Positions 4,673 to 57,600 of a stretch of DNA of 64,000 nucleotides are shown here, one piece after another; position 1 is the stretch's first letter; each line of letters opens with the position of its first letter. This DNA is from Eubacteriales bacterium. Lineage in GTDB: Bacteria; Bacillota; Clostridia; Christensenellales; Aristaeellaceae. Where the stretch lies: the NCBI GenBank assembly GCA_031554475.1, contig JAVBVF010000022.1:21767-85766 (forward strand). Direction: 5' to 3'. The position numbers were made by a program, and so were the translations under genes. Below the pieces are notes generated by a model. That model was not told the DNA's origin. It searched no databases and worked only from the letters and a program-made list of their open reading frames with translations.

Positions 4673-4811
4673 GGTGCATCGCCTGCCTGTCAAAAATGGG
4701 GTAGAGAAGGACGGGACCCAAAAGCGATGCCACAATGAGGAGAGGCTGCGAAACCCTGGGAGGGAAGGCGGAAGAGCAAGGGGTTCGCGCTCTGGTCTTT
4801 GAGCCGCGCGG

Positions 4812-28357: not shown

Positions 28358-28372
28358 GGGGGGAGAACCACA

Positions 28373-29353: not shown

Positions 29354-29366
29354 GGAGGCGCAACCG

Positions 29367-30668: not shown

Positions 30669-30750
30669 GATGGCGGCCAAAGGAGACGGGAAATAAGCGG
30701 ACCGCCCAATGCAAGCCGATGGTCCCAATACCAAGGGGGAGGGTTGATAG

Positions 30751-32112
30751 ATGGATTTATTTGATGTGGCCGTGCTGGGCGGGGGTCCTGGGGGCTATGT
30801 GGCCGCCATCCGCGCGGCGCAGTTGGGCAAAACCGTTGCGCTCATTGAAAAGCGCGAGTTGGGCGGCACATGCCTAAACCGCGGCTGTATCCCTACCAAG
30901 GCGCTTTTGCACAGCGCGGAGCTGTATGAAGAAATGAAGGAAGCCTCCAAGCTGGGGATCGTGGCCCGGGAGCTTTCCTTTGATTACGCGAAGATCGCCG
31001 CCCGCAGAGACGCCGTCGTCAAAAAGCTCCGCCTGGGCGTGGCGGGGCTGATGAAAGCCAATCGCATCACCGTATTTTCCGCTGAAGGGCGACTGAGCGA
31101 TCCGCATACCATCGTGACCGAACAGGAGACCCTCCGCGCGGATCAGGTGATTTTGGCCATGGGCTCCTGTCCGGCGGCGCTGCCCATTCCAGGAATCGAA
31201 TCGGCCTTGAATTCTGACGATGTGCTGGCCATGGACACGCTCCCCGCAAGCCTGGTGATCATTGGCGCGGGGGTGATTGGCGTGGAGTTTGCGACGCTTT
31301 TTTCCGCCCTGGGCGTGAAGGTGGCGCTGGTGGAAATGGCCAGCCAAATTCTGCCGGGAACGGACGAGGAAATCGCCGCCTTGATGCGCAAACGGCTGGA
31401 AAAGAAAAAGGTGACCATTCATACGGACGCCAAGGTGCTGGAAGTGAAAGACGGCAAGGAGTGCGTGTTTGAAGCGGCGGGCAAGCAGCAGCGCGAGGCG
31501 GGGGAGAAGGTCATCGTGGCCGTGGGTCGAAAGCCAGCCACGGAAGGCTTAGGGTTGGAAGCCCTTGGCATATCCCTGGAACGGGGCTTTGTGACAGTGG
31601 ATGAGGAGATGCGCACCAGCATCCCCGGGGTGTTCGCCATTGGCGACATTACGGGGAAAATGCAACTGGCCCATGTGGCCAGCGCCCAGGGGTGCGTGGC
31701 CGCAGAAAACGCTTGCGGCGGGTATCGAAAAATGCGCTATGACATTGTGCCCTCCTGCATCTATACCAGCCCTGAGATCGCCAGCGTGGGCTTGACCCAG
31801 GCGCAGGCCCTGGGCCTGGGCAAGGATGTGAAGATCGGGTCCTTCCCTGTGGCGGCCAATGGCCGCAGTTCCATCATGAACGTCAGCGAAGGGGTGGCCA
31901 AGATCGTCACCGATGCCCGAACGGGAGAGATTTTGGGGGCGCAGATCATGGCGCCCCGGGCCACCGATATGATTGCGGAAATCGCCGCGGTGATGCGCGC
32001 CGAAGGCACGGTGGAGGAACTGGCCGATACCATTCATCCGCATCCCACCGTTAGTGAAATCCTGATGGAAGCGGCCCACGACGTGCACCATCAATGCTGC
32101 CATAAGATATAG
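30751..32112 (+). CDS. lpdA: dihydrolipoyl dehydrogenase E3
   Basis: GGGPGGYVAAIRAAQLG; redox-active GGTCLNRGCIPTKALL. Ends with TAG. Confidence 0.93.
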   Translation: MDLFDVAVLGGGPGGYVAAIRAAQLGKTVALIEKRELGGTCLNRGCIPTKALLHSAELYEEMKEASKLGIVARELSFDYAKIAARRDAVVKKLRLGVAGLMKANRITVFSAEGRLSDPHTIVTEQETLRADQVILAMGSCPAALPIPGIESALNSDDVLAMDTLPASLVIIGAGVIGVEFATLFSALGVKVALVEMASQILPGTDEEIAALMRKRLEKKKVTIHTDAKVLEVKDGKECVFEAAGKQQREAGEKVIVAVGRKPATEGLGLEALGISLERGFVTVDEEMRTSIPGVFAIGDITGKMQLAHVASAQGCVAAENACGGYRKMRYDIVPSCIYTSPEIASVGLTQAQALGLGKDVKIGSFPVAANGRSSIMNVSEGVAKIVTDARTGEILGAQIMAPRATDMIAEIAAVMRAEGTVEELADTIHPHPTVSEILMEAAHDVHHQCCHKI

Positions 32113-39502: not shown

Positions 39503-40678
39503 CTATCTGTAAACTAGGTTTTGATTGCCGCAGAGCGGCTCCACGCCCTCTTTGGAGATCAGGTATCCATTCTCCGTGCGCGAGCCGAAAAACGGCGCGC
39601 CAAACAGCGGAATATCAATGGAGACCACCATTTGGTCCCGTAGCTTTTCAGGGCTGGAGGGCCCGAAGATAGGCGCTTCAAATTCGATGACCCCTACGCT
39701 GTGAATGCCCGAATACAAAAAATACTTTCCATACCCGTGGGCCGCCATGATATCGCGGCCCACTTTTTCCACTTCCCATCCGGTGATGCCGCAACGCAGG
39801 GCTTTGGCGCTTTCCTCATGGGCATGGATACCGGTTTGGATGGACTGTAAGGATTCCGCATCCACGTTCCCTAAAATCACCGTGCGGGCAATGGCGGCAT
39901 GGTACCCCAGCACCCGGGGCGTTACGGTGAGAATTACCACGTCGTTCCCGCTCAACTTCCGTGAGGAAGGCCTGGCCAGGATCGTGCGGGTATGTTCGCC
40001 GGAGGCTACCGCGTTGTCGATGCCAAGGCCATCGGCGCCGGCCTTGCGCATCACATATTCCATTTCCGCGGAGATGTCGCGTTCACAAACGTTTGGGCGG
40101 ATCATTTCGATGCCGGCGCTGATCCCCAGTTGCGCCACTTCATAGGCGCGCCGGATCAGCTTGATTTCACCCTCGCTTTTTTGTGCGCGAAGCAAGGTGA
40201 GAGAATAGTCCACATCCAAAAGCTGAGCGCCTGGAAAAAGGCCGGTGATACGCTCGTACAGCATTGCCCCCATGATCTCTTTTCCCGCAAGGCCAATGCG
40301 GCCTATTTTTTTTGCTGGGGCAGCGGAAAGGGCGATGTCCTTGAGCGAAAAGATCTCGATGGAAAGATAATCCTCATTGGGGTGGACAAACTCTTCCAGC
40401 GCGAAAATCTCCTGGATCCTGCTCACCAGCTGGGCATGCCCCACGGTTTCCGGACCGCAGAGAAATTTTGGCTTTAGCCCCCGCGCAAACAGCAAAAGCA
40501 CCGGCTCGAAGTGCGGGGGGAAATCGGCGAGCCACCTTGCATGGGCGGGGCCAAAGGTCTGCCGGTCATCCGCATAGGCCAGCAGGATATCCAGTTCCTG
40601 TTCTTCCATCAAATGTTCTACGCAGCGCCAGCGGCGGGCGAACTCATCATCGGGCAATCGAAGGGATTCATTCATCAT
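39503..40678 (-). CDS. M24-fold (Xaa-Pro peptidase/creatinase-like) protein, divergent active site
   Basis: 391 aa with GGGAGGAAG RBS. A creatinase-like N-terminal domain is followed by a pita-bread domain. By eye alignment the two canonical Asp metal ligands are replaced. Confidence 0.7.
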   Translation of the reverse strand: MMNESLRLPDDEFARRWRCVEHLMEEQELDILLAYADDRQTFGPAHARWLADFPPHFEPVLLLFARGLKPKFLCGPETVGHAQLVSRIQEIFALEEFVHPNEDYLSIEIFSLKDIALSAAPAKKIGRIGLAGKEIMGAMLYERITGLFPGAQLLDVDYSLTLLRAQKSEGEIKLIRRAYEVAQLGISAGIEMIRPNVCERDISAEMEYVMRKAGADGLGIDNAVASGEHTRTILARPSSRKLSGNDVVILTVTPRVLGYHAAIARTVILGNVDAESLQSIQTGIHAHEESAKALRCGITGWEVEKVGRDIMAAHGYGKYFLYSGIHSVGVIEFEAPIFGPSSPEKLRDQMVVSIDIPLFGAPFFGSRTENGYLISKEGVEPLCGNQNLVYR

Positions 40679-40786
40679 GAGGCTTCCTCCCAGGTTCTTC
40701 TATTGGATTTTTTTGGAGATTCTTGCAAAGTTGGTTCCACGTTTCCCTATTATACCATAAAAATTCCATAAAGCACAAAGAGAGCT

Positions 40787-40819
40787 CATGCTTTGCTTGG
40801 GTGTTCACGCTTTGCTTGG
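40787..40819 (+). repeat. 14-bp direct repeat CAYGCTTTGCTTGG x2 with 19-bp period, upstream of the Ig/GLUG gene
   Basis: Copies at 40787-40800 and 40806-40819, 13 of 14 identical. Confidence 0.5.
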
Positions 40820-40950
40820 TGTGGGCTTCTACGGCAGTGGGTAGACGGAATACCCTATGCAATCAACGGCGAGCCAAGTGGGCGCGCCAGCGCCACAGAA
40901 CCCCCAACGTTTGCTGGCATAGAATGCAATGTGAAAAGGAGGCGTCTCAC

Positions 40951-43900
40951 ATGCCGATAGGGAAGGGCAACCAACCAGTTTATGTATTCCACAGAAACCC
41001 CGTCCGCTGTACATCCGGCAGGCCGACTTCCGATCGTTTACCTTCAGCGCCATGGGTTTGCGAAAGATATCCTTTGAGAAACTCCGGTTGCGGCGCCAGC
41101 CCTTCGCGCGGATGCTGCCGCCCAAGTTGTTGCTGTAGTTGCCAAACCATTCAAATCACAGGGCCGCGCAACGGCGGCGCCGCTACGCCAGGGGATCCCA
41201 TCACGGGCAAAGGAACGCCTTTGTGCCAAGTGGAGCTGTATATCGACGGCGTGTTTGTGGGCTATGTACCCATCGATGCCAATGGCAACTGGATCTATCA
41301 GCCCGCCACGCCTTGGACTCCCGGGCGCCACTGCGTGCGGGCCATTTTGCGTTGCGCGAACGACACGGCCGCTCAGCCGCCAGAGGATACGTCTTGCTTT
41401 GAAGTGCCTGGCGAGCCTGAAATTGAGATCACGGGACCGGAGGATGGGGGAAGCGCCGATCCGGAGGATCCTGTGACGGGTACCGGTGAGCCTGGCTGCG
41501 AGGCCGAGCTTTATGTGGATGGCGTGCTGGTGGGCAGAGTGCCCATTGATGAAAACGGCAATTGGATTTATCAACCGCCAACGCCCTGGACCAACGGGCA
41601 GCACTGTGTGCGTGCGATTCTGCGCTGCCCTAACGACACGCGCCCCAACCCTCCTGAGGACAACACTTGCTTTGAGGTGCCTGGGGTCGTGATTGACGGC
41701 CCGACCAACGGCGGCGAGGCGGATCCTGGCGATCCGGTCATCGGTACCGGCGAACCCGGCTGCGAAGTGGAGCTGTTTATTGACGGCGTGTCCGTGGGCC
41801 GCGTGCCCGTAGACGCCAATGGCCATTGGATTTATCAGCCGCCCATTCCTTGGACCGGCGGGCCGCACTGCGTGGTGGCCGTGCTACGTTGCCCGGATTC
41901 CCCAAACCCCAACCCGCCCAGGGATACCTCCTGCTTTGATGTGGTGGTGCCGCCTTGCCGGATCCCGGATATCGATACGCCCCAGAATTTAGAGGTGGTG
42001 CCCACCAACCAGCCTTCCATTACGGGACGGGGAATCCCCAATTCCACGATCAGAGTCTGTTTGCAGGATGACCAGGGAGCGACGTTGTTTTGCCAAAACG
42101 CGCATGTGTTTGACGACGGCGAATGGGGCATCCAAGTGCCTTCTGTGTTGCCGGACGGCGCCTATACGGTGGTTGCCACCCAGCTGGGGATCAATTGCGT
42201 TCCCTCGGACGCGTTCCGCGCGTTTTCCGTCTTTACCGTGGACACCAGCTTTTTTGAGGTCAACCTGATTTCCCTCAAGCGGGGGGCGGTGTTCCGCACT
42301 GTGGATGTGGTCATGACCACCGACACCTTCGTGCCGCGCACGCTGGACATTTATTATGTGCTACTGGTTCCGGGCTTGCCCATCCCCACCGCCGCAGAGA
42401 TTGTGGCCTATAACGACGCTGGCGACCTGACCAATGGCGACGCGGTGCGGGGGCGGTTTACCGTGCCCCTGAATCCTGGCCCCACCACGTTGCCCTTTGC
42501 CCTGCAGGGCAAGGAAAACATCGCGGCATTGCCCTTGGAGACCGGCGTGATGGACGGCTTTAACTACGACATCTATGTGACGGTCTCCATCGATGGCGGA
42601 ACCAACGTAAGCGGCGTGATGTCACTGTTTGAATCGGCCATCGGCATGCCCTTCGCCTCCGGCAACGGAACGGCGGGCGATCCCTTTGTGGTGCGCATGT
42701 GTACTCCGGCGGAGATGGCATTCTATCCGGACCTGACCCAGGGCAACCCGGGCAACCGCGCGGGCGTTACCGAGAACGCGCGGATTCTGGATAATATCGA
42801 GGGGATGCAAGCGCTGTATGATCAAACGGCGGGTGTGCACGGTATGCCGGATAGCCTGGCGCTCATGTACAGCCTGGATAGCGCCTTTGATCTATCCAAC
42901 TACTCCGCGGCCTGGAACCAGAACGGCTGGCGGCCCATCGGCAATGTGGACGCAGGGTTGATTGCCCCGCCTCTTTCCGGCGCCCATGTGTTCACCGGCG
43001 TCATTCAAAGTGCGCCAGGCGGAACCACCATCAACAATCTGCCGATCAACGCCATCGCTACGGCATCGGATCCGGTATTGGTACGGGGGTTGTTCGGGCA
43101 GACGCAGAGCGTGACATTGTCGGGATTCACACTCACCAACGCGCTTGTGGATGCCTCGGTTACCGGTTCCACAAACGCCGCGCAAACCGGCAAAATCGGC
43201 TCTCTGGTGGGGTACGCCGTAGGTGGGCAAATCACGGATGTTTCGCTGAACGCCGCATCCGTCAGCGCGGGGCGGGCCACAACCGGCAGCAACATGATTG
43301 ATGTGGGCGGCCTGGTTGGCATTGCCCAGGGGCTTAGCAATATCAGAAACATCACCGCCAGCCTGATTAGCGCCACAGAGCTGACCGCCACCGCCACCGT
43401 CATGGGTGGGCTGATTGGCAGGCTGGACCAGTCAGGCATGAACACCCTGGTGCAAAACGTGCAGATGACCCAGGTCAGTGTGAACGCCTACCAGACCCTA
43501 GGCGGAGTGGTGGGGGAAATCGCCAATGGCGTCTCCCTGATGGATATAGTGGCCGTGGTGGGGGTTTCCCTTACCCATGGCGGTTTCCGCGTGGGCGGTA
43601 TTGCGGGGAATCTAACTGCGGACAGCGCCTCCGTCTTGCAAAACCTGACGGTTACCGGTATCCAGGTGGGGCCGGTGAATCCGCCCACCACCACCGGCTA
43701 CTGCGGCGGGCTGATCGGTCTGATTACGCAGACCGCGCCTTGTACCATCCGGGACTCCCAGGTGACCAGCGGCGCCATCAACTCTGGCGGGCGCGTGGGC
43801 GGCGCGTTTGGTTCGATGAGTGTTGGCGCGGCCGGATTCGTGATCCGCAACGTACGCACTGCCGCCGATACACTGCCCAACAACGGACCGGCGGGCGGCT

Positions 43901-44967
43901 TTATCGGCCGGATCGACGCCAACACTAGAATCGAGTCCGCATTGCTTGTGGATAACTGCCGTGTGACCGCCGCGTCGCTCACCGTTACCAGTTCCAACCC
44001 GTCAAGCGCCTTTGTGGGCGGGTTTGTGGGGCTGTTGTCGGCTGCCGCCGGGGCATCGGGCGCCACGACGATGGTGCTGTTCTTCGTAGATTGCTTTACC
44101 TCCGCCTTGACGTCGCACCCCGTGGGGATGAACACCGGCGGGTTTGTGGGCTCGGCATTGCTTTCCTATTATCTGCGCTGCCAAGCCACCGGCAATGTGG
44201 TTTCCTCCCAAAACGTTGGCGGATTCTGTGGAAACGGTTCAGGGAACACGGCCATTGCCGATCCCACCCAGGCTACCCTGCAATTTGTGCTGTGCCAAGC
44301 GCGTGGCGATGTGAGCGCCACCGACACCCGCGTCTTTGCCAATACCGCCACAGGCGGGTTCGCGGGCGCTGTTGCCTATGCGCTCATCGATCGCTGCTTC
44401 GCCAGCGGAAATGTAACCACCGCCGGCGATGATAACGTAGCTGGACTGGTTGGCCAAAGCGCAAACCGTCTCCTGATTCGAAACAGCTACGCCACTGGCG
44501 GAGCGACCAATACCAGCAGCACCGCAGGCGGGCTCATGGGTTCCGGCTCCGGTACGCGAGCGGAAAACTGTTATGCCACGGGTGTTGTTTCCACGGGCAA
44601 CGGCGCGGCAGGGCTTATCGCAAGCCTGGCCAACAATGGAAGCGATACGGGCCGACTGGCCACTTCCTTCGCGCTGAATCCCTCTGTGATCGCTACAAAC
44701 CCGGGAAGCCGTGCCCACCGCGTATGCGCCACGCTGGGCAGCGGCGCGCAGCTCGTATCCAACTATGCATTGGACACGATGATCCTGATGGCCGGCGGCG
44801 TACCAGTGATTCCGGTGGATGACCCCAATGGCCTGGATGGCCAGGGTATGAGCCAATCCAATCTGTCTGCCCTGATTTCCTCCTTGGGTTGGGATACGAT
44901 GATCGTATGGGATATCTCCACCATTGCGACGCTGGGCAGACCGACATTGTTCGGCAATCCGGAGTAA
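40951..44967 (+). CDS. 1338-aa protein: Cys-rich N-terminus, 3 tandem Ig-like repeats + a 4th Ig-like domain, central unknown region, C-terminal GLUG-motif repeat region
   Basis: Within ORF 40723-44967; ATG 40951 is 8 nt after AAAGGAGG. Repeats share the G-x-G-E-P-G-C-E-x-E-L-x-x-D-G...N-G-x-W-I-Y-Q-P pattern. There are more than 10 GG(L/F/I/V)(V/I/A)G motifs between residues about 700 and 1270. No signal peptide, TM segment, LPXTG or SLH motif seen. Confidence 0.8.
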   Translation: MPIGKGNQPVYVFHRNPVRCTSGRPTSDRLPSAPWVCERYPLRNSGCGASPSRGCCRPSCCCSCQTIQITGPRNGGAATPGDPITGKGTPLCQVELYIDGVFVGYVPIDANGNWIYQPATPWTPGRHCVRAILRCANDTAAQPPEDTSCFEVPGEPEIEITGPEDGGSADPEDPVTGTGEPGCEAELYVDGVLVGRVPIDENGNWIYQPPTPWTNGQHCVRAILRCPNDTRPNPPEDNTCFEVPGVVIDGPTNGGEADPGDPVIGTGEPGCEVELFIDGVSVGRVPVDANGHWIYQPPIPWTGGPHCVVAVLRCPDSPNPNPPRDTSCFDVVVPPCRIPDIDTPQNLEVVPTNQPSITGRGIPNSTIRVCLQDDQGATLFCQNAHVFDDGEWGIQVPSVLPDGAYTVVATQLGINCVPSDAFRAFSVFTVDTSFFEVNLISLKRGAVFRTVDVVMTTDTFVPRTLDIYYVLLVPGLPIPTAAEIVAYNDAGDLTNGDAVRGRFTVPLNPGPTTLPFALQGKENIAALPLETGVMDGFNYDIYVTVSIDGGTNVSGVMSLFESAIGMPFASGNGTAGDPFVVRMCTPAEMAFYPDLTQGNPGNRAGVTENARILDNIEGMQALYDQTAGVHGMPDSLALMYSLDSAFDLSNYSAAWNQNGWRPIGNVDAGLIAPPLSGAHVFTGVIQSAPGGTTINNLPINAIATASDPVLVRGLFGQTQSVTLSGFTLTNALVDASVTGSTNAAQTGKIGSLVGYAVGGQITDVSLNAASVSAGRATTGSNMIDVGGLVGIAQGLSNIRNITASLISATELTATATVMGGLIGRLDQSGMNTLVQNVQMTQVSVNAYQTLGGVVGEIANGVSLMDIVAVVGVSLTHGGFRVGGIAGNLTADSASVLQNLTVTGIQVGPVNPPTTTGYCGGLIGLITQTAPCTIRDSQVTSGAINSGGRVGGAFGSMSVGAAGFVIRNVRTAADTLPNNGPAGGFIGRIDANTRIESALLVDNCRVTAASLTVTSSNPSSAFVGGFVGLLSAAAGASGATTMVLFFVDCFTSALTSHPVGMNTGGFVGSALLSYYLRCQATGNVVSSQNVGGFCGNGSGNTAIADPTQATLQFVLCQARGDVSATDTRVFANTATGGFAGAVAYALIDRCFASGNVTTAGDDNVAGLVGQSANRLLIRNSYATGGATNTSSTAGGLMGSGSGTRAENCYATGVVSTGNGAAGLIASLANNGSDTGRLATSFALNPSVIATNPGSRAHRVCATLGSGAQLVSNYALDTMILMAGGVPVIPVDDPNGLDGQGMSQSNLSALISSLGWDTMIVWDISTIATLGRPTLFGNPE
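41149..41949 (+). repeat. three tandem in-frame coding repeats of about 264-273 nt (Ig-like modules, each with 4 conserved Cys)
   Basis: Protein segments ITGPRNGG...CFEVPG, ITGPEDGG...CFEVPG and IDGPTNGG...CFDVV are colinear with identical Cys spacing. Confidence 0.85.
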
Positions 44968-44985: not shown

Positions 44986-45040
44986 GCCTCCAAGTCACCG
45001 GGCCGTCCAAAAAGACGGCCTGGAGGCTTGGAGGCGTTTT
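44986..45040 (+). terminator. compound rho-independent terminator after the Ig/GLUG gene
   Basis: Outer stem GCCTCCAAG/CTTGGAGGC encloses inner stem GGCCGTC/GACGGCC, followed by GTTTTGG. Confidence 0.7.
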
Positions 45041-45066
45041 GGCGTTCATCCGGAAAGGGAAAACGA

Positions 45067-46083
45067 TTAGATGGATTCTCTCACAATCAATTGCGTTGGC
45101 AAGAGCACCCGGCGAGGCAAGGGGAACTCCCCTTGCAGACGGTCGTGGATCAGGTCCACCGCTTGTAAGCCAATCTCAAAAGAAGGAATTTGGTAAGTGG
45201 TTAGTGGAGGGCTCGAAAATTTGGAAAGCTCAATATTGCTGATCCCAATGACGGCAAACTGATGAGGTACGCTGATTCCCATAGAATACAGCGCACTCAG
45301 GGCGGCGATGGCCATCAGATCGCTGGCGGCAAACAGGGCGGAGGGCCTTTCGGGCTGTTCCATGATTTCATGAACTTGCGCCATACAAGTGAGCTCATCC
45401 CAACGGCAATTGCGAACCCAGGCGGCGGGCATTGGCAAACCGGCGGCCTCCATGGCATAGCGGTAACCGATATAGCGGCCGCTTCCTGAAAAGTCGTCGC
45501 TGGGAGCTCCGCCAATAAAGGCGATCTTTCGATGTCCGCGGGCGATGAGGGTTTCCACGGCCCGTTTGGCGGTGTCGAATTGGTCATACCCCACGTTGTC
45601 AATGTCGTCGTGAAGCGTGTCCACCCCCACACATATGGGGATTTTGGCACGGAAAGCCTGGTAAAAGGAAGGCTCCAGGGTTTCCATCAGAATAAGGCCG
45701 GCCGGCGGGTTGTCTAGTATTTCATGAAAAATAAAGGGATCCTTGAGCTCGGCCAGGGTATGCAAAAACCCCAGCGAGTAGCCATGCTGGGCAAAACGCG
45801 CCTCAATGCCGGAGAGCACGTTCATAAAGTAGGGGTCACGGTATTTTTCTTTCACAATGCTGAGCAAACAGCCGATCCGCTTGCTTTTGAGCAACGCTCT
45901 TCGCGGGGCGTCCACTTGGGGAGGCGGCACTTGATAGCCAGTATCGGCAATGGCTTTCCAAACGCGGTCACGGGTTTCCTGCCGCATGCGGTAGGTTTGA
46001 TCATTGTTGACCACCCGAGACACGGTGGCCAGCGAAACACCCGCAAGTCGCGCGATATCGCGCATGGTACTCATTTTCATCAT
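45067..46083 (-). CDS. LacI-family transcriptional regulator
   Basis: MMKMSTMRDIARLAGVSLATVSRVVNND helix-turn-helix plus a sugar-binding fold. The start may be at 46074. Confidence 0.9.
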   Translation of the reverse strand: MMKMSTMRDIARLAGVSLATVSRVVNNDQTYRMRQETRDRVWKAIADTGYQVPPPQVDAPRRALLKSKRIGCLLSIVKEKYRDPYFMNVLSGIEARFAQHGYSLGFLHTLAELKDPFIFHEILDNPPAGLILMETLEPSFYQAFRAKIPICVGVDTLHDDIDNVGYDQFDTAKRAVETLIARGHRKIAFIGGAPSDDFSGSGRYIGYRYAMEAAGLPMPAAWVRNCRWDELTCMAQVHEIMEQPERPSALFAASDLMAIAALSALYSMGISVPHQFAVIGISNIELSKFSSPPLTTYQIPSFEIGLQAVDLIHDRLQGEFPLPRRVLLPTQLIVRESI

Positions 46084-46247: not shown

Positions 46248-47504
46248 ATGCGAGTTGTTTTAATTGGCGCCGGCCAGCGCGGCAGAATTTATTCGGATTA
46301 TATGGCGGACTCGAAAAAGGCTGAGATCGTTGCGGTGGTGGAGCCGGATGCGGGGCGGAGGGAAGCCGCCGCCCAAAAGTTTACCCTCCCCACAGCCTTC
46401 TGTTTCCAAACAGTGGAGGAACTGTGGAAGCAACAAAAGATCGCGGATGTCGCGATTATCGCTTCCATGGACCGCGACCATTATGCCCAAGTGATGTCCG
46501 CGCTGGAGCTTGGGTATGATATTTTGCTGGAAAAGCCGGTTTCGCCTTCGCTTGCGGAGTGCCTAGCGATTCAAAAGAAAGCCAGAGAGACCGGGCGGCG
46601 GGTGGTGGTATGCCACGTGCTTCGTTATACCCCTTTTTTTGCCGCCATCAAAAAACTGCTGGATGAGAATACCTTGGGGCGCGTGGTGTCGATTCAGCAT
46701 GAGGAAAATATTGGTAACTGGCATATGGCCCATAGCTTTGTGCGGGGCAACTGGGCTAGGCAGGAAAAATCCAGCCCCATCATTTTGCAAAAATCCAGCC
46801 ATGACATGGACATTTTGGTGTGGCTGATCGGCAGCCGCGTGAAGGCTCTCTCCTCGGTGGGGGATTTGCGCTACTTTGTTCCGGCCAACGCGCCCCAGGG
46901 AAGCGCGGAGCGCTGCACAGACTGCCAAGTGCGGGAAACGTGCCGATTTGATGCGGAAAAGTCCTATTTGCCAGTGCTGGGAGAGTGGCCGGCATTGGTC
47001 GTAACCCCCAACCAGACGCTGGAAGGCCTGCGGGAAGCGTTAAAGACCAGCCCTTATGGAAGGTGTGTATACCGCTGCGGCAATAACGTTTGCGATAGCC
47101 AATCTACTCTTTTGGAGTTTGAAAACGGCGTAGCGGTGAACTTCACCATGTCCGCCTTCACAAGCCGCATGTGCCGGACCATTCGCATTCTCTGCGAACA
47201 TGGGGAAATCAGTGGAAACGATGACCAACGGCGCATCACGATTGCCCGCTTCCCCTCCAACGCAGTGGAGACCTATACGGTGGAAGAACGCTATACCAGC
47301 GCCACCCGCAGCGGGCATGGTGGCGGAGACAGCGGGCTGGTGGACGATTTTTTGCGCATGCTGGCGGGAGAGCAAACACAAAGTTCCTCCTCTATTGACG
47401 AGTCGATTGAGAGCCATTTGATGGCCTTTGCGGCGGAAGAGAGCCGCCTTACAGGGGGAGAACGGATCGCACTGGATGCGCTTCGCAAAGGAGGCGTGCA
47501 GTAA
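46248..47504 (+). CDS. Gfo/Idh/MocA-family NAD(P)-dependent oxidoreductase
   Basis: MRVVLIGAGQRGRIY Rossmann N-terminus and LEKP motif; GGAGGA RBS. Confidence 0.88.
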   Translation: MRVVLIGAGQRGRIYSDYMADSKKAEIVAVVEPDAGRREAAAQKFTLPTAFCFQTVEELWKQQKIADVAIIASMDRDHYAQVMSALELGYDILLEKPVSPSLAECLAIQKKARETGRRVVVCHVLRYTPFFAAIKKLLDENTLGRVVSIQHEENIGNWHMAHSFVRGNWARQEKSSPIILQKSSHDMDILVWLIGSRVKALSSVGDLRYFVPANAPQGSAERCTDCQVRETCRFDAEKSYLPVLGEWPALVVTPNQTLEGLREALKTSPYGRCVYRCGNNVCDSQSTLLEFENGVAVNFTMSAFTSRMCRTIRILCEHGEISGNDDQRRITIARFPSNAVETYTVEERYTSATRSGHGGGDSGLVDDFLRMLAGEQTQSSSSIDESIESHLMAFAAEESRLTGGERIALDALRKGGVQ

Positions 47505-48847
47505 TGCTCACGGTTTTCCCCAAAGTGACAGACCGCCTATTGGTCAACCCGGGAATCGGCTTTGTGGCCGCCCAAGGGCTGATGGGCGATGCGGAGCAGG
47601 TCAAGGACAGCCGGGGCAATCCGGTGGCGGCGTACCGCTTTACCCCCGAAAGCCGCACCTGGAACCATCCCGATTCCGGCCTCTCCTTTGCCAGCTTTCG
47701 CTGGAAGGATTTGGAGCCGGAAGAAGGAAGGTACGATTGGACCCAGGTGGAGGCGCGGCTGGCCGCCGTCAAGGCATTGGGCTGTATTGCCGTGGTTCGC
47801 GTAGCCCCCTATGCCTTGGCCAAGGAAGAGGACATTCCCGCCTGGCTTCGGGTCCGTTACCCGGAAACGCCGGAATACCCTTTTTGGCGGATTGACCCCA
47901 ACACGACGGAGTACCCGGCGCTTTGGGCTCGTTTTGTGGAGGCCTTTGCGGCCCGCTATGACGGGCACCCGTTAATCAGCGCTGTGGATATCGCCATCGT
48001 GGGGGCCTGGGGCGAGGGCGCGGGCACCGAATGGATGAACCAGGATGGCCTGGAGACCGTCGTGCGGGCGTATATGCATGGATTTCTCCGCACGCCGCTC
48101 CATGCCCAGGTTCATGATTTGCGCAGTGTGGCCTGCATTCAAAGCTATAGGCGGGATGTGGGGCTGCGCATGGATTGCCTGGGGGATATGGGCGGGTTTC
48201 ACCCGGGAAAATGGAGCCATATGCTGGATTTTTACCCGCAAAACATTGCGAATTTTCATATGACGGATGCCTGGAAGCATGGGCCGGTGATGTTTGAAGC
48301 CTGTTGGCATATGAACGATTGGTACTTGCAGGGCTGGGATATCGAATATATTATTTCGGAGTCACTCAAATGGCACATTTCGGCCTATGCCAGCAAGGGA
48401 ACCAATGTGCCGGAGCCCTGGCGGGACCGTGTGGCGGATTGGGTTCGCCGTATGGGCTTCCGCTTTGAAATCCACCGTTGCCGCTTCTCATCCCAGGGAA
48501 ATCCTGGCGGCGCGCTGGATTTTGAGATGTTGCTCAGCAACAGCGGCGTAGCCCCAGCCTATCACAATTATGCGCCGGTGCTGCATTTGACGGGCGCTGG
48601 ACGTATGGTGGAGCTTGGGCTTGATGTGGATATCCGAACCTGGCTGCCAGGAGAAGATCATCAAATCACGCAACGCATAAAATTGCCCAAGGAAGTTCCC
48701 CAGGGCGATTATGAATTGTCACTGGGCTTTCCAGTGCCGGAATACAAGGGTAAAACCTTGGAATTGGCCATTGAGGGCCGCAATGCGGAGGGATTTTATC
48801 CCTTGGGAACCGTGAGTATCATTACGGCAGAGGAGGAAGGCGTATGA
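47504..48847 (+). CDS. DUF4832-type putative glycoside hydrolase (TIM-barrel-like + C-terminal beta-sandwich), cytoplasmic
   Basis: 447 aa with no signal peptide. Colinear with the C-terminal 440 aa of the 54682 protein (W-x-D-L-E-P-E-E-G-x-Y-D-W, GAWGEG, C-terminal LPxxxPxGxYxL). TAATG overlap with the upstream gene. Confidence 0.6.
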   Translation: MLTVFPKVTDRLLVNPGIGFVAAQGLMGDAEQVKDSRGNPVAAYRFTPESRTWNHPDSGLSFASFRWKDLEPEEGRYDWTQVEARLAAVKALGCIAVVRVAPYALAKEEDIPAWLRVRYPETPEYPFWRIDPNTTEYPALWARFVEAFAARYDGHPLISAVDIAIVGAWGEGAGTEWMNQDGLETVVRAYMHGFLRTPLHAQVHDLRSVACIQSYRRDVGLRMDCLGDMGGFHPGKWSHMLDFYPQNIANFHMTDAWKHGPVMFEACWHMNDWYLQGWDIEYIISESLKWHISAYASKGTNVPEPWRDRVADWVRRMGFRFEIHRCRFSSQGNPGGALDFEMLLSNSGVAPAYHNYAPVLHLTGAGRMVELGLDVDIRTWLPGEDHQITQRIKLPKEVPQGDYELSLGFPVPEYKGKTLELAIEGRNAEGFYPLGTVSIITAEEEGV

Positions 48848-54586: not shown

Positions 54587-54611
54587 TTGGATCACGGATG
54601 GATGTAGGGAC

Positions 54612-54637
54612 AAAAGGCCGGGTAAAACCGGCCTTTT
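54612..54637 (+). terminator. rho-independent terminator after the solute-binding protein gene
   Basis: Perfect 10-bp stem AAAAGGCCGG/CCGGCCTTTT with a 6-nt loop. Confidence 0.7.
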
Positions 54638-54681
54638 GTACACGATTCTGGTTGCTCCAGCCTATGAAGCGGAGGTATGAC

Positions 54682-57600
54682 ATGAAAAAATTCGTTTGCT
54701 GGCTCGCAGTGGTATTGTGCGTGCTTTTCAGCGCCGCGGCGCTGGCGGAGGAAGCGCCTCCCGCCATTACGGTAGACGGCGATTTGAGTGATTGGGCAGG
54801 AATTTACAGCCTCTCGGAGGGCGATGAGAAAATTGCGATCCTGTATGCGTTCAAAACGGATGATATGGTGTATGCAGCCTTTCAGGCGCCGGATTTGACC
54901 AATATCAGCGTTTATGACGTGATGTTTGATACGGATAACAATCCGGCTACAGGCTATCAATGCGATGGCCGCCATAAAACCGCCGGAGCGGACTTTTTGG
55001 TGGAAACCTGGACCGCCGGAACCTATGCCGGGGCCACGGGAAGCGAGTGGGAGTGGAATGAAGCCTCCTACGATATTCAACGCGCCGCCTCCCGGGACAA
55101 CACCACGGTGGAGATCGGCGTGCCCTTGAGCATTTTGGGCAACCCCGAAATGCTGCGTATAACCGCCTGGTCCATGAATTCGGATTGGGTGGCCTCGGGC
55201 TTTGCGCCCAAATTGGGCGAACCCTTTGCGGAGGTACCCTACTACAAAGAAGTCATCGGAGCGCCCATCACTGATCCGTTGACGGAGATCGGCCTTGCGG
55301 CGGAGGCCCCTGTCCAGGCGCTTACAGAGAATGCGCTGCCAGGGGGAACGGTGGGGAACTTGACAGCCAAGGGCGGCGATGGCAAGACCTATGATTTTAC
55401 CTTCCGCCAGGATGCCAACAAGGGCCGGGATAACAGCCGCTTTGTCATCAAGGGCAACGTGCTGATGGTGGGCGAGGCTTCGCTGTCGCCAGGCACCTAC
55501 AAGGTGGCGGTGCAGTGCCAGAGCCTGATTCGTAAAGAGACCGCCAACCTGGTGGTGGAGGTGTTGCCCCAGGATCCCGCTACAGCCATCACCACCGAGG
55601 TGTTTGATGGCGCGGATGGCGAGTGGTATGCTGTGCCCCATGCGGCCGCGTACAAGCTGCCCAACGTGACTGCCCTCAAGGCGCAAACCGATGGGAGAAG
55701 CGTTTTCTTCTTCGCCGAAGCCCAACGGCTTGGGGAGGACTATGCCTTCTATATTGGCAACGAAATCACCACGGGGCAGGACATGGCCGAAACCTGGGCC
55801 GGAGCCGCCCCCGCCAACCGGATCGATCCGGATGGCTCTGTCTGGGTTTGGCAGGATGGGGAATATGTAAAGACCGACAATAAGGCCCAGCTTCATAAAA
55901 CCGAAAAGGGCGTGGAAGGGTTGGTGGCCATTGGGGCGCTCCATTCTTCCGCCAAAGCGTTCACCTTCGGGTTCTCCGATGGGGAAGGCTGCTTTTTGCC
56001 GGACGCGGGCGCGCCCATGCTGAAAGCTACTGCCCCCGAACGGCTCTTTAGCCCCGGCATTCGGGGAGACGGCACGGAGGAGGACTGGACCTATGTGCAG
56101 CCCCTATGCCAGGGCTCCGGCGTGGTGGGGGAGGTGTACGCCGCTCGCACGGATGAGTTCCTGTATGTGATGACCACGGTTTCCGGTGTGACGGATCCGG
56201 AAAGCGACACCGCGTTTTCCCTGAATATTTTGGTTGATGCTGACGGTAATCCCGTCAATGGCTACCGTCATCCAGGATATTCCGCCCATAGCGGCATGGA
56301 TGTGTTGGTGCAGGACTGGCATTCCTTGAACCTGGAATTCTTTGTGTATGAAAAGCCGAGCGATGAGTGGTTTAGCTGTGTGGGCCGCCCGCCGGAAGGC
56401 ATCAAGAAATTCGTGGAAGAGCAGGGCGACGGCGTATATAAGCTAAAGTACGCCATCCCTGTCAAGTTGGTCAGCGAATATCTGCCAGAGGTATCGGATG
56501 ATTGGTACATTGCGGTGGACCGCCAGCAGGACATGCAGGAGGGTACTACCGTGGGTACTGCGCCGGAAGCATATCAGGAGGGGAGCGGGCTATTGCTGGT
56601 TCCCAAGTACCGCACTCGGGTAGCCCATTTGGATGTGGCGGACGATACCTTTGCCGACTGGGACGCGGTGGGCAATAAGGTTACGCCCTCCAGCCAAGCG
56701 GCTACGCAGAACTTGCGGGGTACCCTGTCTGAAGAGCGGCTCTATTTGCTGGCAAATGGGCAAAAGCTGGATACCACGGCCATCTGGCTGTTGTCCACAG
56801 GCAAAGGCTTCGCCTATGCGGGGTATTCGGATGTGACCCATCTGGTCAAGGGCGGTAAGCTGTATGCTGTAACGGCAGACGACACCCTTGGGGCAGAAGG
56901 CCTGCCCATCTATACCCAGTACTATGCCGATAGCGCGGAGGTACAGGTGTACTTGGAGGATTTGGGCTGGCCGGAGCAAGTCTTTGTGGCCTACCAGTGC
57001 AAGGACACTCAGTTGCCTGCCGAGGGCATGATGGCAGTTACGCAGCGCTTTGCCCTGGCGCGGCCGGAAGGCGCCTATTTCCCCAGAGAGGATTTCGGGG
57101 CGTTCCCTAATCCCTATCATGGCTGGATGGCTTGGGCCAGCACGTCTCCCGAGGAACCCATCCGGCACGCCTTTGACACGGTGTTCCTGGATGTGAAATG
57201 GGCGGAGTTTGAGCCGGAAAAAGGCAAATATGACTTTGAAATTCTAGAAAAGAAGTATCATTTGGATACCTGGAAGGAGCGCGGCGTGCGCGTGATCCTG
57301 CGCTTTGTGATCGACGACGTGATCGATAACGGCGGCGCGGACCGCATGGATATCCCCGCTTGGCTTTATGAGGAACTGGTGGCGGAGAATGCGGGCGGGA
57401 AAGGCGCGGGTACCTTCTACTATGAAGCGGAAGCCCTGGGCGGCGGCGGATTCTCGCCCAATTATGACAGCCCGCTACTCATCGGATATCATGCCAAGGC
57501 CATTGCCGCCTTGGCCGAACGCTTTGACGATCCGGCCATCACCGCCTATGTGCAGGTGGGAAGCCTGGGCCATTGGGCGGAAATGCACTGCTGGCCGGAG

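What the first reader, a model, noticed from the sequence alone, without database searches (positions are those of the whole stretch)
40951..44967. Orphan 1338-aa Ig-repeat / GLUG-repeat protein with no recognisable export, anchoring or partner genes
Seen: a single large gene with a strong RBS (AAAGGAGG-8-ATG) and its own strong terminator. It sits between a divergent M24-fold gene and a convergent LacI gene. The architecture is a Cys-rich N-terminus, three tandem Ig-like repeats plus a fourth Ig-like domain, about 280 aa of unassigned sequence, a GNGTAGDPFVV segment, and then about 560 aa rich in GG(L/F/I)(V/I)G turns that ends in LGWD..IVWDI. I see no signal peptide, TM helix, LPXTG, SLH, choline-binding or type VII-like motifs. 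No secretion or chaperone genes are adjacent. Established: GLUG motifs occur in extracellular beta-helical proteins such as IgA1-protease-related adhesins, and Ig-like modules of this G-x-G-E-P-G type are typical of surface proteins. Inference: an apparently extracellular architecture without an export signal suggests an unconventional route. Options include mother-cell deposition on a spore surface, lysis- or phage-like release, or an unrecognised N-terminal targeting signal.
Basis: partly seen in the sequence, partly recalled or inferred. Interest (0 to 1): 0.65.

Follow-up and report, generated by a model that had tools for sequence, protein, structure and literature searches.

The report
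Probable spore-surface fibre protein
This large gene most likely encodes a fibre that the mother cell deposits on the outside of a bacterial spore, which would explain why a protein built for the cell exterior has no export signal; this is inferred from sequence and not yet tested.

Summary
The ORF runs 40951-44967 (+) and encodes 1338 aa. It has a perfect RBS and a -52.5 kcal/mol terminator, and sits between a divergent M24 gene and a convergent LacI gene. It has no signal peptide, TM helix or anchor motif.

AlphaFold gives a disordered Cys-rich tail (aa 1-62), four Ig-like domains, a beta-sandwich mid domain and a GLUG beta-helix of about 650 aa.

The missing export signal is real. None of about 30 family representatives without an SLH domain has one, and in 9 of 17 loci the frame closes within 18 codons upstream of the start.

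Four lines of evidence point to mother-cell synthesis and spore-surface display:
1. A sigma-K-type promoter (AC-N16/17-CATAnnnT) lies just upstream of the RBS in 8 of 17 family genes and 0 of 138 background genes.
2. Two relatives replace the Cys tail with an A_ENA endospore-appendage domain, and one lies in an a-ena gene cluster.
3. Two relatives have a Cys tail followed by collagen, as in BclA.
4. A host MAG carries spoIIID.

Distant relatives that do have a signal peptide carry SLH-like domains instead.

The family is rare, unnamed and strikingly poor in lysine. I read it as a new variant of spore-surface fibre or appendage tip protein. Expression and location are untested.

The parts
40900..40926 (+). 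Sigma-K-type promoter-like element: -35 AC (40900-40901), 16-nt spacer, -10 CATAGAATG (40918-40926)
   Evidence: Read from the sequence. It is the only intergenic, correctly oriented hit of AC-N16/17-CATAnnnT in the window. The same element sits at the same distance from the start in 8 of 17 family genes and in 0 of 138 background genes. The consensus is taken from PMC3789822.
40935..40942 (+). Ribosome-binding site AAAGGAGG, 8 nt before the ATG
40951..44967 (+). Coding sequence of 1338 aa plus the stop codon
   Evidence: 12 full-length orthologs at 52-75% identity
40951..41148 (+). N-terminal tail, aa 1-66: disordered, basic, Cys/Pro-rich (9 Cys, including CC at 55-56 and CCC at 60-62). Proposed disulfide anchor.
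   Evidence: pLDDT is below 35 for aa 1-62. All orthologs have a comparable tail of 38-88 aa with 4-15 Cys and none has a signal peptide. A semi-conserved C-x-P-C-x-C-x-x-C-[RQ]-x-I-x-I motif precedes Ig domain 1.
41149..41949 (+). Three tandem Ig-like beta-sandwich repeats (aa 67-333), each with 4 invariant Cys. Proposed stalk.
   Evidence: DNA repeats. AF2 pLDDT 80-95. Invariant Cys columns. Copy number varies from 1 to 5 among orthologs.
41950..42240 (+). Fourth Ig-like domain (aa 334-430), Pfam Big_13
   Evidence: E 2e-16
42241..42645 (+). Mid beta-sandwich domain (aa 431-565), a family signature (RGxxFRTVD ... IYYLLLxPGxPxPT ... ETGVMDG)
   Evidence: AF2 model pLDDT 65-80. Foldseek matches Ig/FN3-like sandwiches. 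Conserved in all family members.
42646..43050 (+). Cap and entry of the beta-helix (aa 566-700), the most conserved stretch of the protein (GMPFASGNG..DPF.VR..YPDL..GNPGNRAGVTENARILDNIEGM..GWRPIGN)
   Evidence: The model is of low to moderate confidence here.
43051..44964 (+). Right-handed GLUG beta-helix (aa 701-1338) with 13 GG[LFIV]xG turns and a conserved C-terminal cap. Proposed distal head.
   Evidence: Pfam Glug 23.9 bits against a gathering threshold of 20.5. AF2 pLDDT above 90. Foldseek hit to 3n6z, prob 0.96. Motif count.
44986..45043 (.). Bidirectional intrinsic terminator: a nested G+C-rich hairpin followed by a U run, lying between this gene and the convergent LacI gene
   Evidence: (dG -52.5 kcal/mol, z -8.3)

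Best explanation
The gene encodes a modular fibre protein of the endospore surface: an exosporium 'nap' component or an appendage tip.

Proposed mechanism:
1. It is transcribed as a single gene late in sporulation from a sigma-K-type promoter in the mother cell.
2. It is made in the compartment that surrounds the forespore, so it needs no Sec signal.
3. Its disordered, basic, Cys/Pro-rich N-terminal tail of about 62 aa is the proximal end. It becomes covalently fixed by disulfides to a Cys-rich outer spore layer or appendage once the mother cell lyses and the surface oxidises.
4. Four Ig-like domains form a rigid stalk, stabilised by two predicted disulfides per tandem repeat. Stalk length varies between relatives (1-5 repeats).
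5. A beta-sandwich domain plus a GLUG beta-helix of about 650 aa form the distal head. The head probably binds a surface, a glycan or other spores.

Shown here: the anatomy, the absence of an export signal across the family, the promoter footprint, the domain swaps with A_ENA and collagen, and spoIIID in a host MAG. Inferred: the timing of expression, the location, the disulfide anchoring, and the ligand.
For: (1) No signal peptide.
- None is present in the window protein, in 16 related loci, or in about 30 family representatives. The highest 15-residue Kyte-Doolittle mean is at most 1.6.
- In 9 of 17 loci a stop codon closes the frame within 18 codons upstream of the RBS-linked start.

(2) The protein is built for an oxidising exterior.
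- The window protein has 36 Cys. Each tandem Ig repeat has four invariant Cys.
- Remote relatives of the mid/cap module that do have signal peptides carry SLH-like wall-binding segments (P0161, P0163).

(3) Promoter.
- aAC-N16/17-gCATAnnaTG lies 27-33 nt before the start codon in the window and in L005, L006, L008, L009, L010, L011 and L012. The -10 element alone is present in L001 and L014.
- The full motif occurs in 8 of 17 family genes and 0 of 138 RBS-preceded background genes in the same contigs (Fisher p = 3.5e-9).
- It matches the Clostridial sigma-K consensus, -35 AC and -10 CATA..., under which bclA1-3 and the cot genes are placed (PMC3789822).
- The same motif precedes both divergent a-ena genes in L026.

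(4) Domain swaps.
- P0143 and P0144 (the L017 gene) share the mid domain and beta-helix. In place of the Cys tail they have a Pfam PF26595 A_ENA domain. For the L017 gene this is 51% identical to a single-domain A_ENA protein, E 5e-27.
- P0143 lies 22 nt downstream of an 89-aa A_ENA subunit gene and beside another A_ENA fusion.
- A-ENA are alpha-helical endospore appendages. Their fusions are proposed to act as tip 'ruffles' (PMC13111695).

(5) P0100 and P0141 have a Cys-rich tail, then a collagen triple-helix region, then Ig, mid domain and helix. This is the BclA-like layout.

(6) Precedent for Cys-mediated N-terminal coupling of spore fibres: the S-ENA connector uses Cys10-Cys11, the L-ENA connector uses Cys8, and L-BclA has a CC motif.

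(7) EPI_MAG_00002 carries three family members and encodes SpoIIID beside mbl.

(8) The gene is monocistronic and has no conserved neighbours in more than 8 contexts. From general knowledge, scattered single genes are usual for coat and exosporium genes.
Against: - There is no expression or localisation data.
- No sporulation gene was found among the roughly 30 window ORFs scanned with Pfam. The sporulation capacity of this particular organism is inferred from relatives.
- The promoter would leave a leader of only about 17-20 nt, with the SD at its very 5' end. The -10 ends in TG rather than the canonical TA.
- Seven of 17 family genes lack the motif at that position.
- The orthologs are related, so the Fisher test overstates independence.
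- The window protein itself has neither an A_ENA domain nor collagen. The link to spore appendages is therefore by shared passenger module, not by direct membership.
- No partner such as an Ena, CotY-like or A_ENA gene was found in the window: tblastn found no A_ENA sequence and the ORFs scanned with Pfam gave no such hit.
- Codons 1-66 have atypical GC by codon position.45/.70/.53, although this fits their Cys/Pro/Arg/Gly bias.
Confidence: 0.6

Rival explanations
1. It is a vegetative cell-surface adhesin exported by an unrecognised route. In this reading the Cys-rich N-terminus is a novel targeting signal, or the protein is released by autolysis and re-binds the wall.
For: The Ig and GLUG beta-helix architecture is typical of surface adhesins. 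Remote relatives of the mid/cap module are classical signal-peptide plus SLH-like proteins. No sporulation gene was found among the window ORFs scanned.
Against: No secretion or chaperone genes are conserved next to any family member. The conserved upstream footprint is of the mother-cell sigma type, not sigma-A. The A_ENA and collagen swaps point to spores. The Cys tail varies in length and sequence and is predicted to be disordered, which is unlike a recognised secretion signal.
Confidence: 0.17
2. It is a phage- or tailocin-derived tailspike or fibre protein that is released by lysis.
For: It has a long beta-helix, Ig-like domains and no signal peptide. Foldseek against viral models finds GLUG-type beta-helices (best E 8e-9, but TM at most 0.4).
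Against: No phage genes flank the gene in the window or in more than 8 related loci. PHROGs gives 0 hits. tblastn against 50,697 phage genomes finds no match. The viral fold hits are generic beta-helix similarity.
Confidence: 0.05
3. It is made in the mother cell, but as a soluble or matrix component. Examples would be an enzyme acting on spore or mother-cell polysaccharide, or an extrasporal matrix protein. In this reading it is not an anchored fibre, and the Cys tail binds metal.
For: Right-handed beta-helices are common in glycan-active enzymes (general knowledge). The cap region, aa 566-700, is the most conserved part of the protein. Anchoring is untested.
Against: No catalytic family was detected by Pfam, NCBIfam, PDB sequence search or Foldseek. 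A variable number of Ig spacers and swappable N-terminal attachment modules (A_ENA, collagen) fit a tethered fibre better.
Confidence: 0.13
4. The puzzle is an annotation artefact: the true start lies upstream or a frameshift hides a normal signal peptide.
For: In the window the frame stays open for 76-90 codons upstream and encodes a hydrophobic patch, CFAWVFTLCLVWASTAVG.
Against: That stretch has no usable RBS and a GC3 of 0.54, and it would leave only 44 nt to the divergent gene. It is absent from orthologs, and in 9 of 17 of them the frame closes within 18 codons. The perfect SD precedes ATG 40951.
Confidence: 0.02

Closest known systems
A-ENA fusion ('ruffle') proteins of alpha-helical endospore appendages (Pfam PF26595 A_ENA; Sleutel, Sogues & Remaut 2026, PMC13111695)
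   Same: Two members of this protein's family, P0143 and P0144, are A_ENA fusions whose passenger is the same Ig, mid-domain and GLUG beta-helix module. P0143 lies in an a-ena cluster directly after a single-domain subunit gene. None has a signal peptide, and a sigma-K-type motif lies upstream of a-ena genes.
   Different: The window protein has no A_ENA domain and no a-ena gene nearby. Its N-terminus is a disordered Cys-rich tail, so any coupling would be by disulfides rather than by the isopeptide-bonded helical hairpin. The passenger types named in the section of the paper I read are collagen/C1q, SdrD_B/OmcB and 4Fe-4S. A GLUG beta-helix is not among them.
BclA-type collagen-like exosporium and appendage-tip proteins (BclA, L-BclA, F-BclA; C. 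difficile BclA1-3)
   Same: The overall logic is the same: an N-terminal attachment segment, an extended stalk, a C-terminal globular head, and no signal peptide. bclA1-3 are placed in the sigma-K regulon in C. difficile. L-BclA has an N-terminal CC motif proposed to couple it to the fibre. The relatives P0100 and P0141 do contain collagen repeats after the Cys tail.
   Different: In the window protein the stalk is made of Ig-like domains, not collagen. The head is a beta-helix of about 650 aa, not a C1q/TNF-like BclA_C domain. No sequence homology was detected.
Disulfide-linked spore structures: the S-/L-ENA N-terminal connectors and, from general knowledge, the Cys-rich exosporium/crust proteins ExsY/CotY, CdeC and CsxA
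   Same: Short N-terminal peptides bearing CC motifs covalently tether spore fibres by disulfides. The family N-termini carry CC, CxC or CCC motifs directly before the first folded domain.
   Different: There is no DUF3992 jellyroll and no CotY/Z domain. The tail here is longer (38-88 aa) and much richer in Cys. The partner is unknown.
GLUG-motif beta-helix surface proteins, for example the putative IgA1 protease BACOVA_03286 (PDB 3n6z) and the LPXTG protein 7uvl
   Same: The Glug Pfam match is above threshold. The fold is a right-handed beta-helix. Foldseek gives prob 0.96 to 3n6z, and there is a weak profile hit to 7uvl_P (E 0.075).
   Different: As their names indicate, those are LPXTG-anchored or secreted proteins. 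This protein has neither a signal peptide nor an anchor motif, and TM-scores are low (at most 0.35). No protease domain is present.

Membership tests
Pfam Glug (PF07581) beta-helix proteins | Glug motif HMM scoring above the gathering threshold | tested here: met
   23.9 bits against a cut-off of 20.5, in 3 stretches. There are 13 GG[LFIV]xG turns.
Pfam Glug (PF07581) beta-helix proteins | Right-handed beta-helix fold | tested here: met
   The AF2 model has pLDDT above 90 over aa 685-1338 and is all-beta with regular short strands. Foldseek hit to 3n6z: prob 0.96, TMt 0.35.
Bacterial Ig-like domain Big_13 (PF19077) | HMM match above the gathering threshold, and a beta-sandwich fold | tested here: met
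   60.7 bits against 27. Four beta-sandwich domains with pLDDT 80-95.
A-ENA fusion proteins (PF26595 plus passenger) | A_ENA alpha-helical hairpin domain in the protein | tested here: not met
   tblastn with six A_ENA sequences finds nothing in the window. The N-terminus is a disordered Cys-rich tail with no helices. The feature is met in the relatives P0143 and P0144.
A-ENA fusion proteins (PF26595 plus passenger) | Clustered with a single-domain a-ena subunit gene | tested here: not met
   There is no a-ena gene in the window or in the other Cys-tail loci. The feature is met for P0143.
BclA-type collagen-like exosporium proteins | Collagen GXY triple-helix region | tested here: not met
   No Collagen hit in the window protein at E up to 1. 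The feature is met in the relatives P0100 (32.6 bits) and P0141 (33.1 bits).
BclA-type collagen-like exosporium proteins | C-terminal C1q/TNF-like BclA_C domain | tested here: not met
   The C-terminal part is a GLUG beta-helix. No BclA_C hit was found.
BclA-type collagen-like exosporium proteins | B. cereus-group N-terminal exosporium leader motif | not tested
   I did not scan specifically for this motif. NCBIfam reported no exosporium-leader model for the protein.
S-/L-ENA subunits (DUF3992 Ena core) | Ena-core jellyroll domain | tested here: not met
   No such Pfam hit. The folds are Ig-like sandwiches and a beta-helix.
S-/L-ENA subunits (DUF3992 Ena core) | Flexible N-terminal connector with Cys-Cys that forms intermolecular disulfides | tested here: inconclusive
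   CC at aa 55-56 and CCC at aa 60-62 lie in a disordered tail. This resembles the connectors described, but disulfide formation and the partner cannot be tested here.
Sigma-K (late mother-cell) regulon | Promoter matching -35 AC, 16-17 nt spacer, -10 CATAnnnT(A) | tested here: met
   The element lies at 40900-40926. It is conserved in position in 8 of 17 family genes and 0 of 138 background genes. Consensus as in PMC3789822.
Sigma-K (late mother-cell) regulon | sigK-dependent transcription during sporulation | not testable with these tools
   This needs RNA from sporulating cultures or a sigK mutant.
Sec/Tat-exported wall-anchored surface proteins | N-terminal signal peptide | tested here: not met
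   The highest 15-residue Kyte-Doolittle mean is 0.57 in the first 70 aa. There is no RR-plus-hydrophobic segment or lipobox, and no conserved upstream extension.
Sec/Tat-exported wall-anchored surface proteins | LPXTG, SLH, choline-binding or LysM anchor | tested here: not met
   No such Pfam or NCBIfam hits. The C-terminus is ...GRPTLFGNPE.
Phage tailspike or tail-fibre proteins | Homology to phage proteins, or location in a phage structural module | tested here: not met
   PHROGs gives 0 families. tblastn against the phage collection gives no match. No phage neighbours were seen.

The most novel reading that the evidence does not exclude
The family would be a previously undescribed class of endospore-surface fibre in Clostridia (Oscillospiraceae and other Eubacteriales). 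A lysine-free passenger made of an Ig stalk and a GLUG beta-helix head would be mounted on interchangeable N-terminal attachment modules: a Cys-rich 'disulfide plug', the plug plus collagen, or an A_ENA hairpin. The Cys-rich tail would be a new, general way to graft large adhesins covalently onto spore layers or appendages. The near-absence of lysine would be an adaptation that keeps the passenger out of the isopeptide or transglutaminase cross-linking chemistry of the spore surface.
Probability: 0.3. Interest if true: 0.72.

Novelty: new variant of a known kind. Interest (0 to 1): 0.58.

Why it matters
- Spore-surface fibres (BclA naps and the S-, L-, F- and A-ENA appendages) govern spore adhesion, clumping and persistence. 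They are known almost only from Bacillus and a few pathogens.
- If the reading is right, this gene gives a candidate spore adhesin for uncultured Clostridia.
- It would add a new type of passenger, a GLUG beta-helix on an Ig stalk, to the modules that can be mounted on spore appendages.
- It points to a Cys-rich tail as a possible attachment device that can be swapped with A_ENA and collagen modules.
- There is a practical lesson. Extracellular-looking proteins without signal peptides in spore-forming Firmicutes should be checked for mother-cell promoters. Gene callers can also miss such N-termini: the public call for this gene starts 90 codons too late.
- The strong, family-wide avoidance of lysine is a testable clue to the chemistry of the spore surface.

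Tried and rejected
- **Hidden signal peptide.** I examined the upstream in-frame extension. It has no RBS, low GC3, and is not conserved. Rejected.
- **Conserved neighbours or secretion partners.** Ten or more contexts were inspected and nothing is shared.
- **Look-up of the public gene call P0001.** It is not on record.
- **Similarity to solved structures.** The PDB sequence-profile search gave only a weak GLUG hit. Foldseek against the PDB gave nothing below E 0.001.
- **Phage origin.** PHROGs, phage tblastn and viral Foldseek gave nothing specific. Rejected.
- **Sporulation genes in the window.** Three Pfam calls covering the target gene and 16 other window ORFs returned only metabolic or transport genes.
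- **Literature searches.** 'EPI_MAG' (to identify the MAG project), 'LNAEGEK' and 'PF26595' gave nothing useful. The local Pfam copy lacks PF26595. Its name came from the precomputed annotations.
- **JGI metagenome scan.** Only 2 loci were found, one of them already known.
- **The ATG inside the conserved CATAnnATG element as the true start.** It is in frame in only about half of the orthologs and has no SD. Rejected.
- **Sigma-A promoter.** The scan found none upstream on the + strand.

Full report
**1.

The ORF starts with ATG at 40951 and ends with its stop codon at 44967, giving 1338 aa. A perfect Shine-Dalgarno sequence, AAAGGAGG (40935-40942), lies 8 nt upstream.

Downstream is a nested G+C-rich hairpin with a U run. 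It folds at -52.5 kcal/mol (z = -8.3 against shuffles) and lies between this gene and the convergent LacI-family gene at 45067-46083. The divergent upstream gene, 39503-40678, is Peptidase_M24.

Pfam finds Big_13 (E 2e-16), Glug (above its gathering score) and sub-threshold Big_7. The three tandem repeats are also visible in the DNA, as 225-nt units about 70% identical.

No hydrophobic N-terminal segment, TM helix, LPXTG, SLH or choline-binding motif is present.

**2. Anatomy**

Two AlphaFold2 models built on ortholog alignments give the following picture.

| Residues | Feature | Confidence |
|---|---|---|
| 1-62 | disordered; 9 Cys, 9 Lys+Arg against 2 Asp+Glu, 9 Pro | pLDDT < 35 |
| 67-152, 159-243, 247-331 | three Ig-like beta-sandwiches | pLDDT 80-95 |
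| 348-430 | fourth, divergent sandwich (Big_13) | pLDDT about 80 |
| 431-565 | further beta-sandwich ('mid domain') | pLDDT 65-80 |
| 566-685 | partly helical cap | low to moderate |
| 685-1338 | long right-handed beta-helix | pLDDT > 90 |

- The second model has mean pLDDT 83.5 and pTM 0.80.
- The helix carries 13 GG[LFIV]xG turns, mostly spaced 27-45 residues apart.
- Foldseek finds no close solved structure. The relevant hits are the GLUG beta-helix of a putative IgA1 protease (3n6z, prob 0.96, TM 0.35) and generic Ig/FN3 sandwiches.
- Each tandem Ig repeat has four invariant cysteines. This fits a protein that folds in, or ends up in, an oxidising environment.

**3. The missing export signal is real and holds across the family**

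Only 12 full-length orthologs exist among 5.8 billion clustered proteins, at 52-75% identity. All are unnamed and all come from MAGs.

A scan of 185,579 species genomes returned 17 loci. All are from one MAG project (JAVB..., 'EPI_MAG'), labelled Eubacteriales, Oscillospiraceae or Syntrophomonadaceae. Genomes often carry 2-3 paralogs.

I anchored starts on the RBS. Every Ig-bearing relative then has a Cys-rich, basic, Pro-rich tail of 38-88 aa with 4-15 Cys, and none has a signal peptide. This includes three orthologs whose public gene calls were truncated.

In 9 of 17 loci a stop codon closes the frame within 18 codons upstream of the start, so a hidden signal peptide is impossible there.

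In the window the frame happens to stay open upstream and encodes a hydrophobic patch. That stretch has no RBS, its GC3 is 0.54 against 0.70 for the gene, and it is not conserved. The public gene call for this very gene (P0001) starts at an internal TTG, codon 91. That start would cut Ig domain 1 in half.

**4. A wider, rare family with swappable N-termini**

I searched a profile of the mid domain plus cap against 1.84 billion representative proteins. Only 29 scored below E 1e-30. A JGI metagenome scan found just 2 loci.

The full-length members again lack signal peptides. They usually carry CC, CxC or CCC motifs directly before the first folded domain, for example 'WNCCCLRIFYP' and 'RCFCRPRRKAKPRTCCCSPLTIYAP'.

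Three variants are informative:
- **Collagen.** P0100 (the L016 gene) and P0141 have the Cys-rich tail followed by a collagen triple-helix region, with Pfam Collagen above threshold. This is the layout of BclA-type spore filaments.
- **A_ENA.** P0143 and P0144 (the L017 gene) have no Cys tail. They have an alpha-helical hairpin domain instead. Its 120 listed database relatives are all annotated PF26595, whose name is A_ENA. The L017 domain is 51% identical to a single-domain A_ENA protein (E 5e-27), and the precomputed Pfam annotation agrees.
- **Signal peptide.** Remote relatives of the mid/cap module that do have signal peptides (P0161, P0163) carry SLH-like segments. Others have the mid domain alone after a signal peptide.

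The module is therefore an extracytoplasmic display module. What changes between variants is the way it is delivered and attached.

**5. The link to spores**

A-ENA are alpha-helical endospore appendages of Bacillus thuringiensis. They have homologs in Clostridia. Single-domain subunits polymerise into isopeptide-cross-linked fibres. 'A-ENA fusions' carrying passenger domains are proposed to dock on the fibre as tip 'ruffles' (PMC13111695).

P0143 lies 22 nt downstream of an 89-aa single-domain A_ENA gene and next to a divergent 348-aa A_ENA fusion. This is an a-ena cluster, and it is found in an assembly and a JGI metagenome unrelated to the EPI project. The module of Ig, mid domain and GLUG helix is thus a spore-appendage passenger in at least that lineage.

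One MAG with three family members (EPI_MAG_00002) encodes SpoIIID next to mbl, and the sequence checks out. That host is therefore very likely an endospore former. A small Mn-catalase/ferritin-like protein, which I read as CotJC-like from memory, lies near another member. Its Pfam match is weak and NCBIfam does not confirm it.

**6. Promoter footprint**

Immediately upstream of the RBS the window has AC (40900-40901), 16 nt, then CATAGAATG (40918-40926).

- The same element, aAC-N16/17-gCATAnnaTG, lies 27-33 nt before the start codon in L005, L006, L008, L009, L010, L011 and L012. The -10 element alone is present in L001 and L014. The surrounding intergenic sequence is otherwise diverged.
- The full motif occurs in 8 of 17 family genes and 0 of 138 RBS-preceded genes in the same contigs (p = 3.5e-9). 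The -10 element alone occurs in 10 of 17 against 5 of 138. The orthologs are not independent samples, so these p-values are optimistic.
- In the whole window the motif occurs 5 times on both strands, against 8.9 expected. Only this copy is intergenic and correctly oriented.
[quoted passage not shown] The bclA1-3 and cot genes are placed in the sigma-K regulon (PMC3789822).
- As a positive control, both divergent a-ena genes of L026 are preceded by the full motif, and the L017 gene has one 172 nt upstream.
- No sigma-70-like promoter was found upstream on the + strand.

Caveats: the leader would be only about 17-20 nt, the -10 ends in TG rather than TA, and 7 of 17 members lack the element at that position.

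**7. Proposed mechanism**

The steps that rest on evidence are these. The protein lacks any export signal. It is built for an oxidising exterior. It carries a mother-cell-type promoter footprint. Its relatives are attached to spore appendages or have a BclA-like layout.

The rest is inference. The gene would be transcribed late in the mother cell and the protein deposited on the forespore surface. The disordered Cys-rich tail would be the proximal anchor, fixed by disulfides to a Cys-rich layer or fibre.

There is precedent for this. The N-terminal connectors of S-ENA (Cys10-Cys11) and L-ENA (Cys8) tether subunits by disulfides, and L-BclA has a CC motif proposed to do the same.

The Ig repeats would act as a spacer. 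Their number varies from 1 to 5 among orthologs, as expected for a stalk. The mid domain and beta-helix would form the distal head. No catalytic family was detected by any method, so binding or adhesion is the default guess.

**8. Rivals**

- An unknown vegetative export route cannot be excluded without experiments. It does not explain the promoter footprint or the A_ENA and collagen swaps.
- A phage or tailocin origin lacks any support.
- A mother-cell-made but non-anchored matrix protein or enzyme remains possible.
- An annotation artefact is excluded.

**9. An unexplained extra**

The protein has 5 lysines in 1338 residues (0.4%). The mean for 24 other proteins of the window is 4.5%, and arginine is normal at 4.1%.

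The depletion is shared by most signal-peptide-less members sampled: 0.1-1.1% in 22 of 26. The collagen-bearing P0100 and P0141, together with P0144 and P0147, have 1.8-3.8%. The SLH-type relatives have 5.8-7.8%.

Because arginine is kept, avoidance of epsilon-amine chemistry is a more attractive explanation than protease resistance. Such chemistry would include transglutaminase or autocatalytic isopeptide cross-linking on spore surfaces. This is speculation.

**10. Verdict**

This is a genuine and rare family, and its puzzle has a coherent answer. It is most likely a spore-surface or appendage-tip fibre, a new variant of a known kind of system. I could not file it in any named family beyond its Ig and Glug domains.

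The main weakness is that everything about expression and location is inferred. In addition, the window itself holds no independent sign that its organism sporulates.

Noticed in passing
window 40951-44964 and family proteins P0002-P0013, P0101-P0107, P0143, P0145, P0149: Extreme lysine depletion: 0.4% here and 0.1-1.1% in 22 of the 26 signal-peptide-less relatives sampled, against a 4.5% mean in other window proteins. Arginine is normal. The signal-peptide plus SLH-type relatives P0161 and P0163 have 5.8-7.8% Lys.
   Followed up: partly
window 41221 (codon 91, TTG): The public gene call for this gene (P0001, 1248 aa) starts at an internal TTG. It omits the Cys-rich tail and the first strands of Ig domain 1. 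Three orthologs (P0007, P0009, P0013) were similarly called too short; RBS-anchored GTG starts restore their Cys-rich tails.
   Followed up: yes
window 40723-40950: The reading frame stays open for 76-90 codons upstream of the true start and encodes a signal-peptide-like hydrophobic patch (CFAWVFTLCLVWASTAVG). It has no RBS, low GC3, and is not conserved, so it is a chance feature that could mislead.
   Followed up: yes
L027 6436-7692 and L026 10805-12058: A serpin gene lies within a few kb of the a-ena (A_ENA) gene cluster in two unrelated contigs. Both clusters also have a divergent A_ENA fusion of about 346-348 aa. Only the L027 copy was translated: it has a Cys-rich N-terminal part and the A_ENA domain at its C-terminus.
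   Followed up: no
L031 13479-13748 (-) and 12376-13413 (-): A spoIIID-mbl pair lies 2 kb from the collagen-bearing family member P0141 in EPI_MAG_00002, a MAG that also carries two other family paralogs (L003, L015).
   Followed up: partly
L025 15546-16097 (-): A 183-aa protein that looks CotJC-like to me (recognised from memory; the Pfam Mn_catalase match is weak and NCBIfam gives only sub-threshold ferritin-like hits). It has a Cys-rich C-terminus (CPGSYCPAQFC) and lies 1.6 kb from family member P0107.
   Followed up: partly
window 47504-48847 and 54598-58431: Two proteins with DUF4832 lie downstream of the LacI gene, among GFO/IDH/MocA and GNAT-like genes and an ORF beginning with a hydrophobic N-terminus that I read as a substrate-binding protein (not scanned). 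One has a GH42-like N-terminus. The other is 1277 aa; its ORF has a hydrophobic, signal-like stretch (MKKFVCWLAVVL) beginning about 28 codons in. This is probably an uncharacterised glycan-utilisation cluster.
   Followed up: no
L001-L017, L021-L025, L029-L031: Almost all family members, including ones only 30-37% identical, come from a single MAG project (JAVB..., 'EPI_MAG', read set SRR23967709), with 2-3 paralogs per genome. I could not identify the habitat.
   Followed up: partly
window 27389-32112 and 3671-4735: From ORF layout and my reading of the translations, 27389-32112 looks like a 2-oxoacid dehydrogenase complex (E1 alpha, E1 beta, E2, E3); these ORFs were not scanned. A lipoate-protein ligase at 3671-4735 is confirmed by Pfam. 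These appear to be ordinary metabolic context.
   Followed up: no
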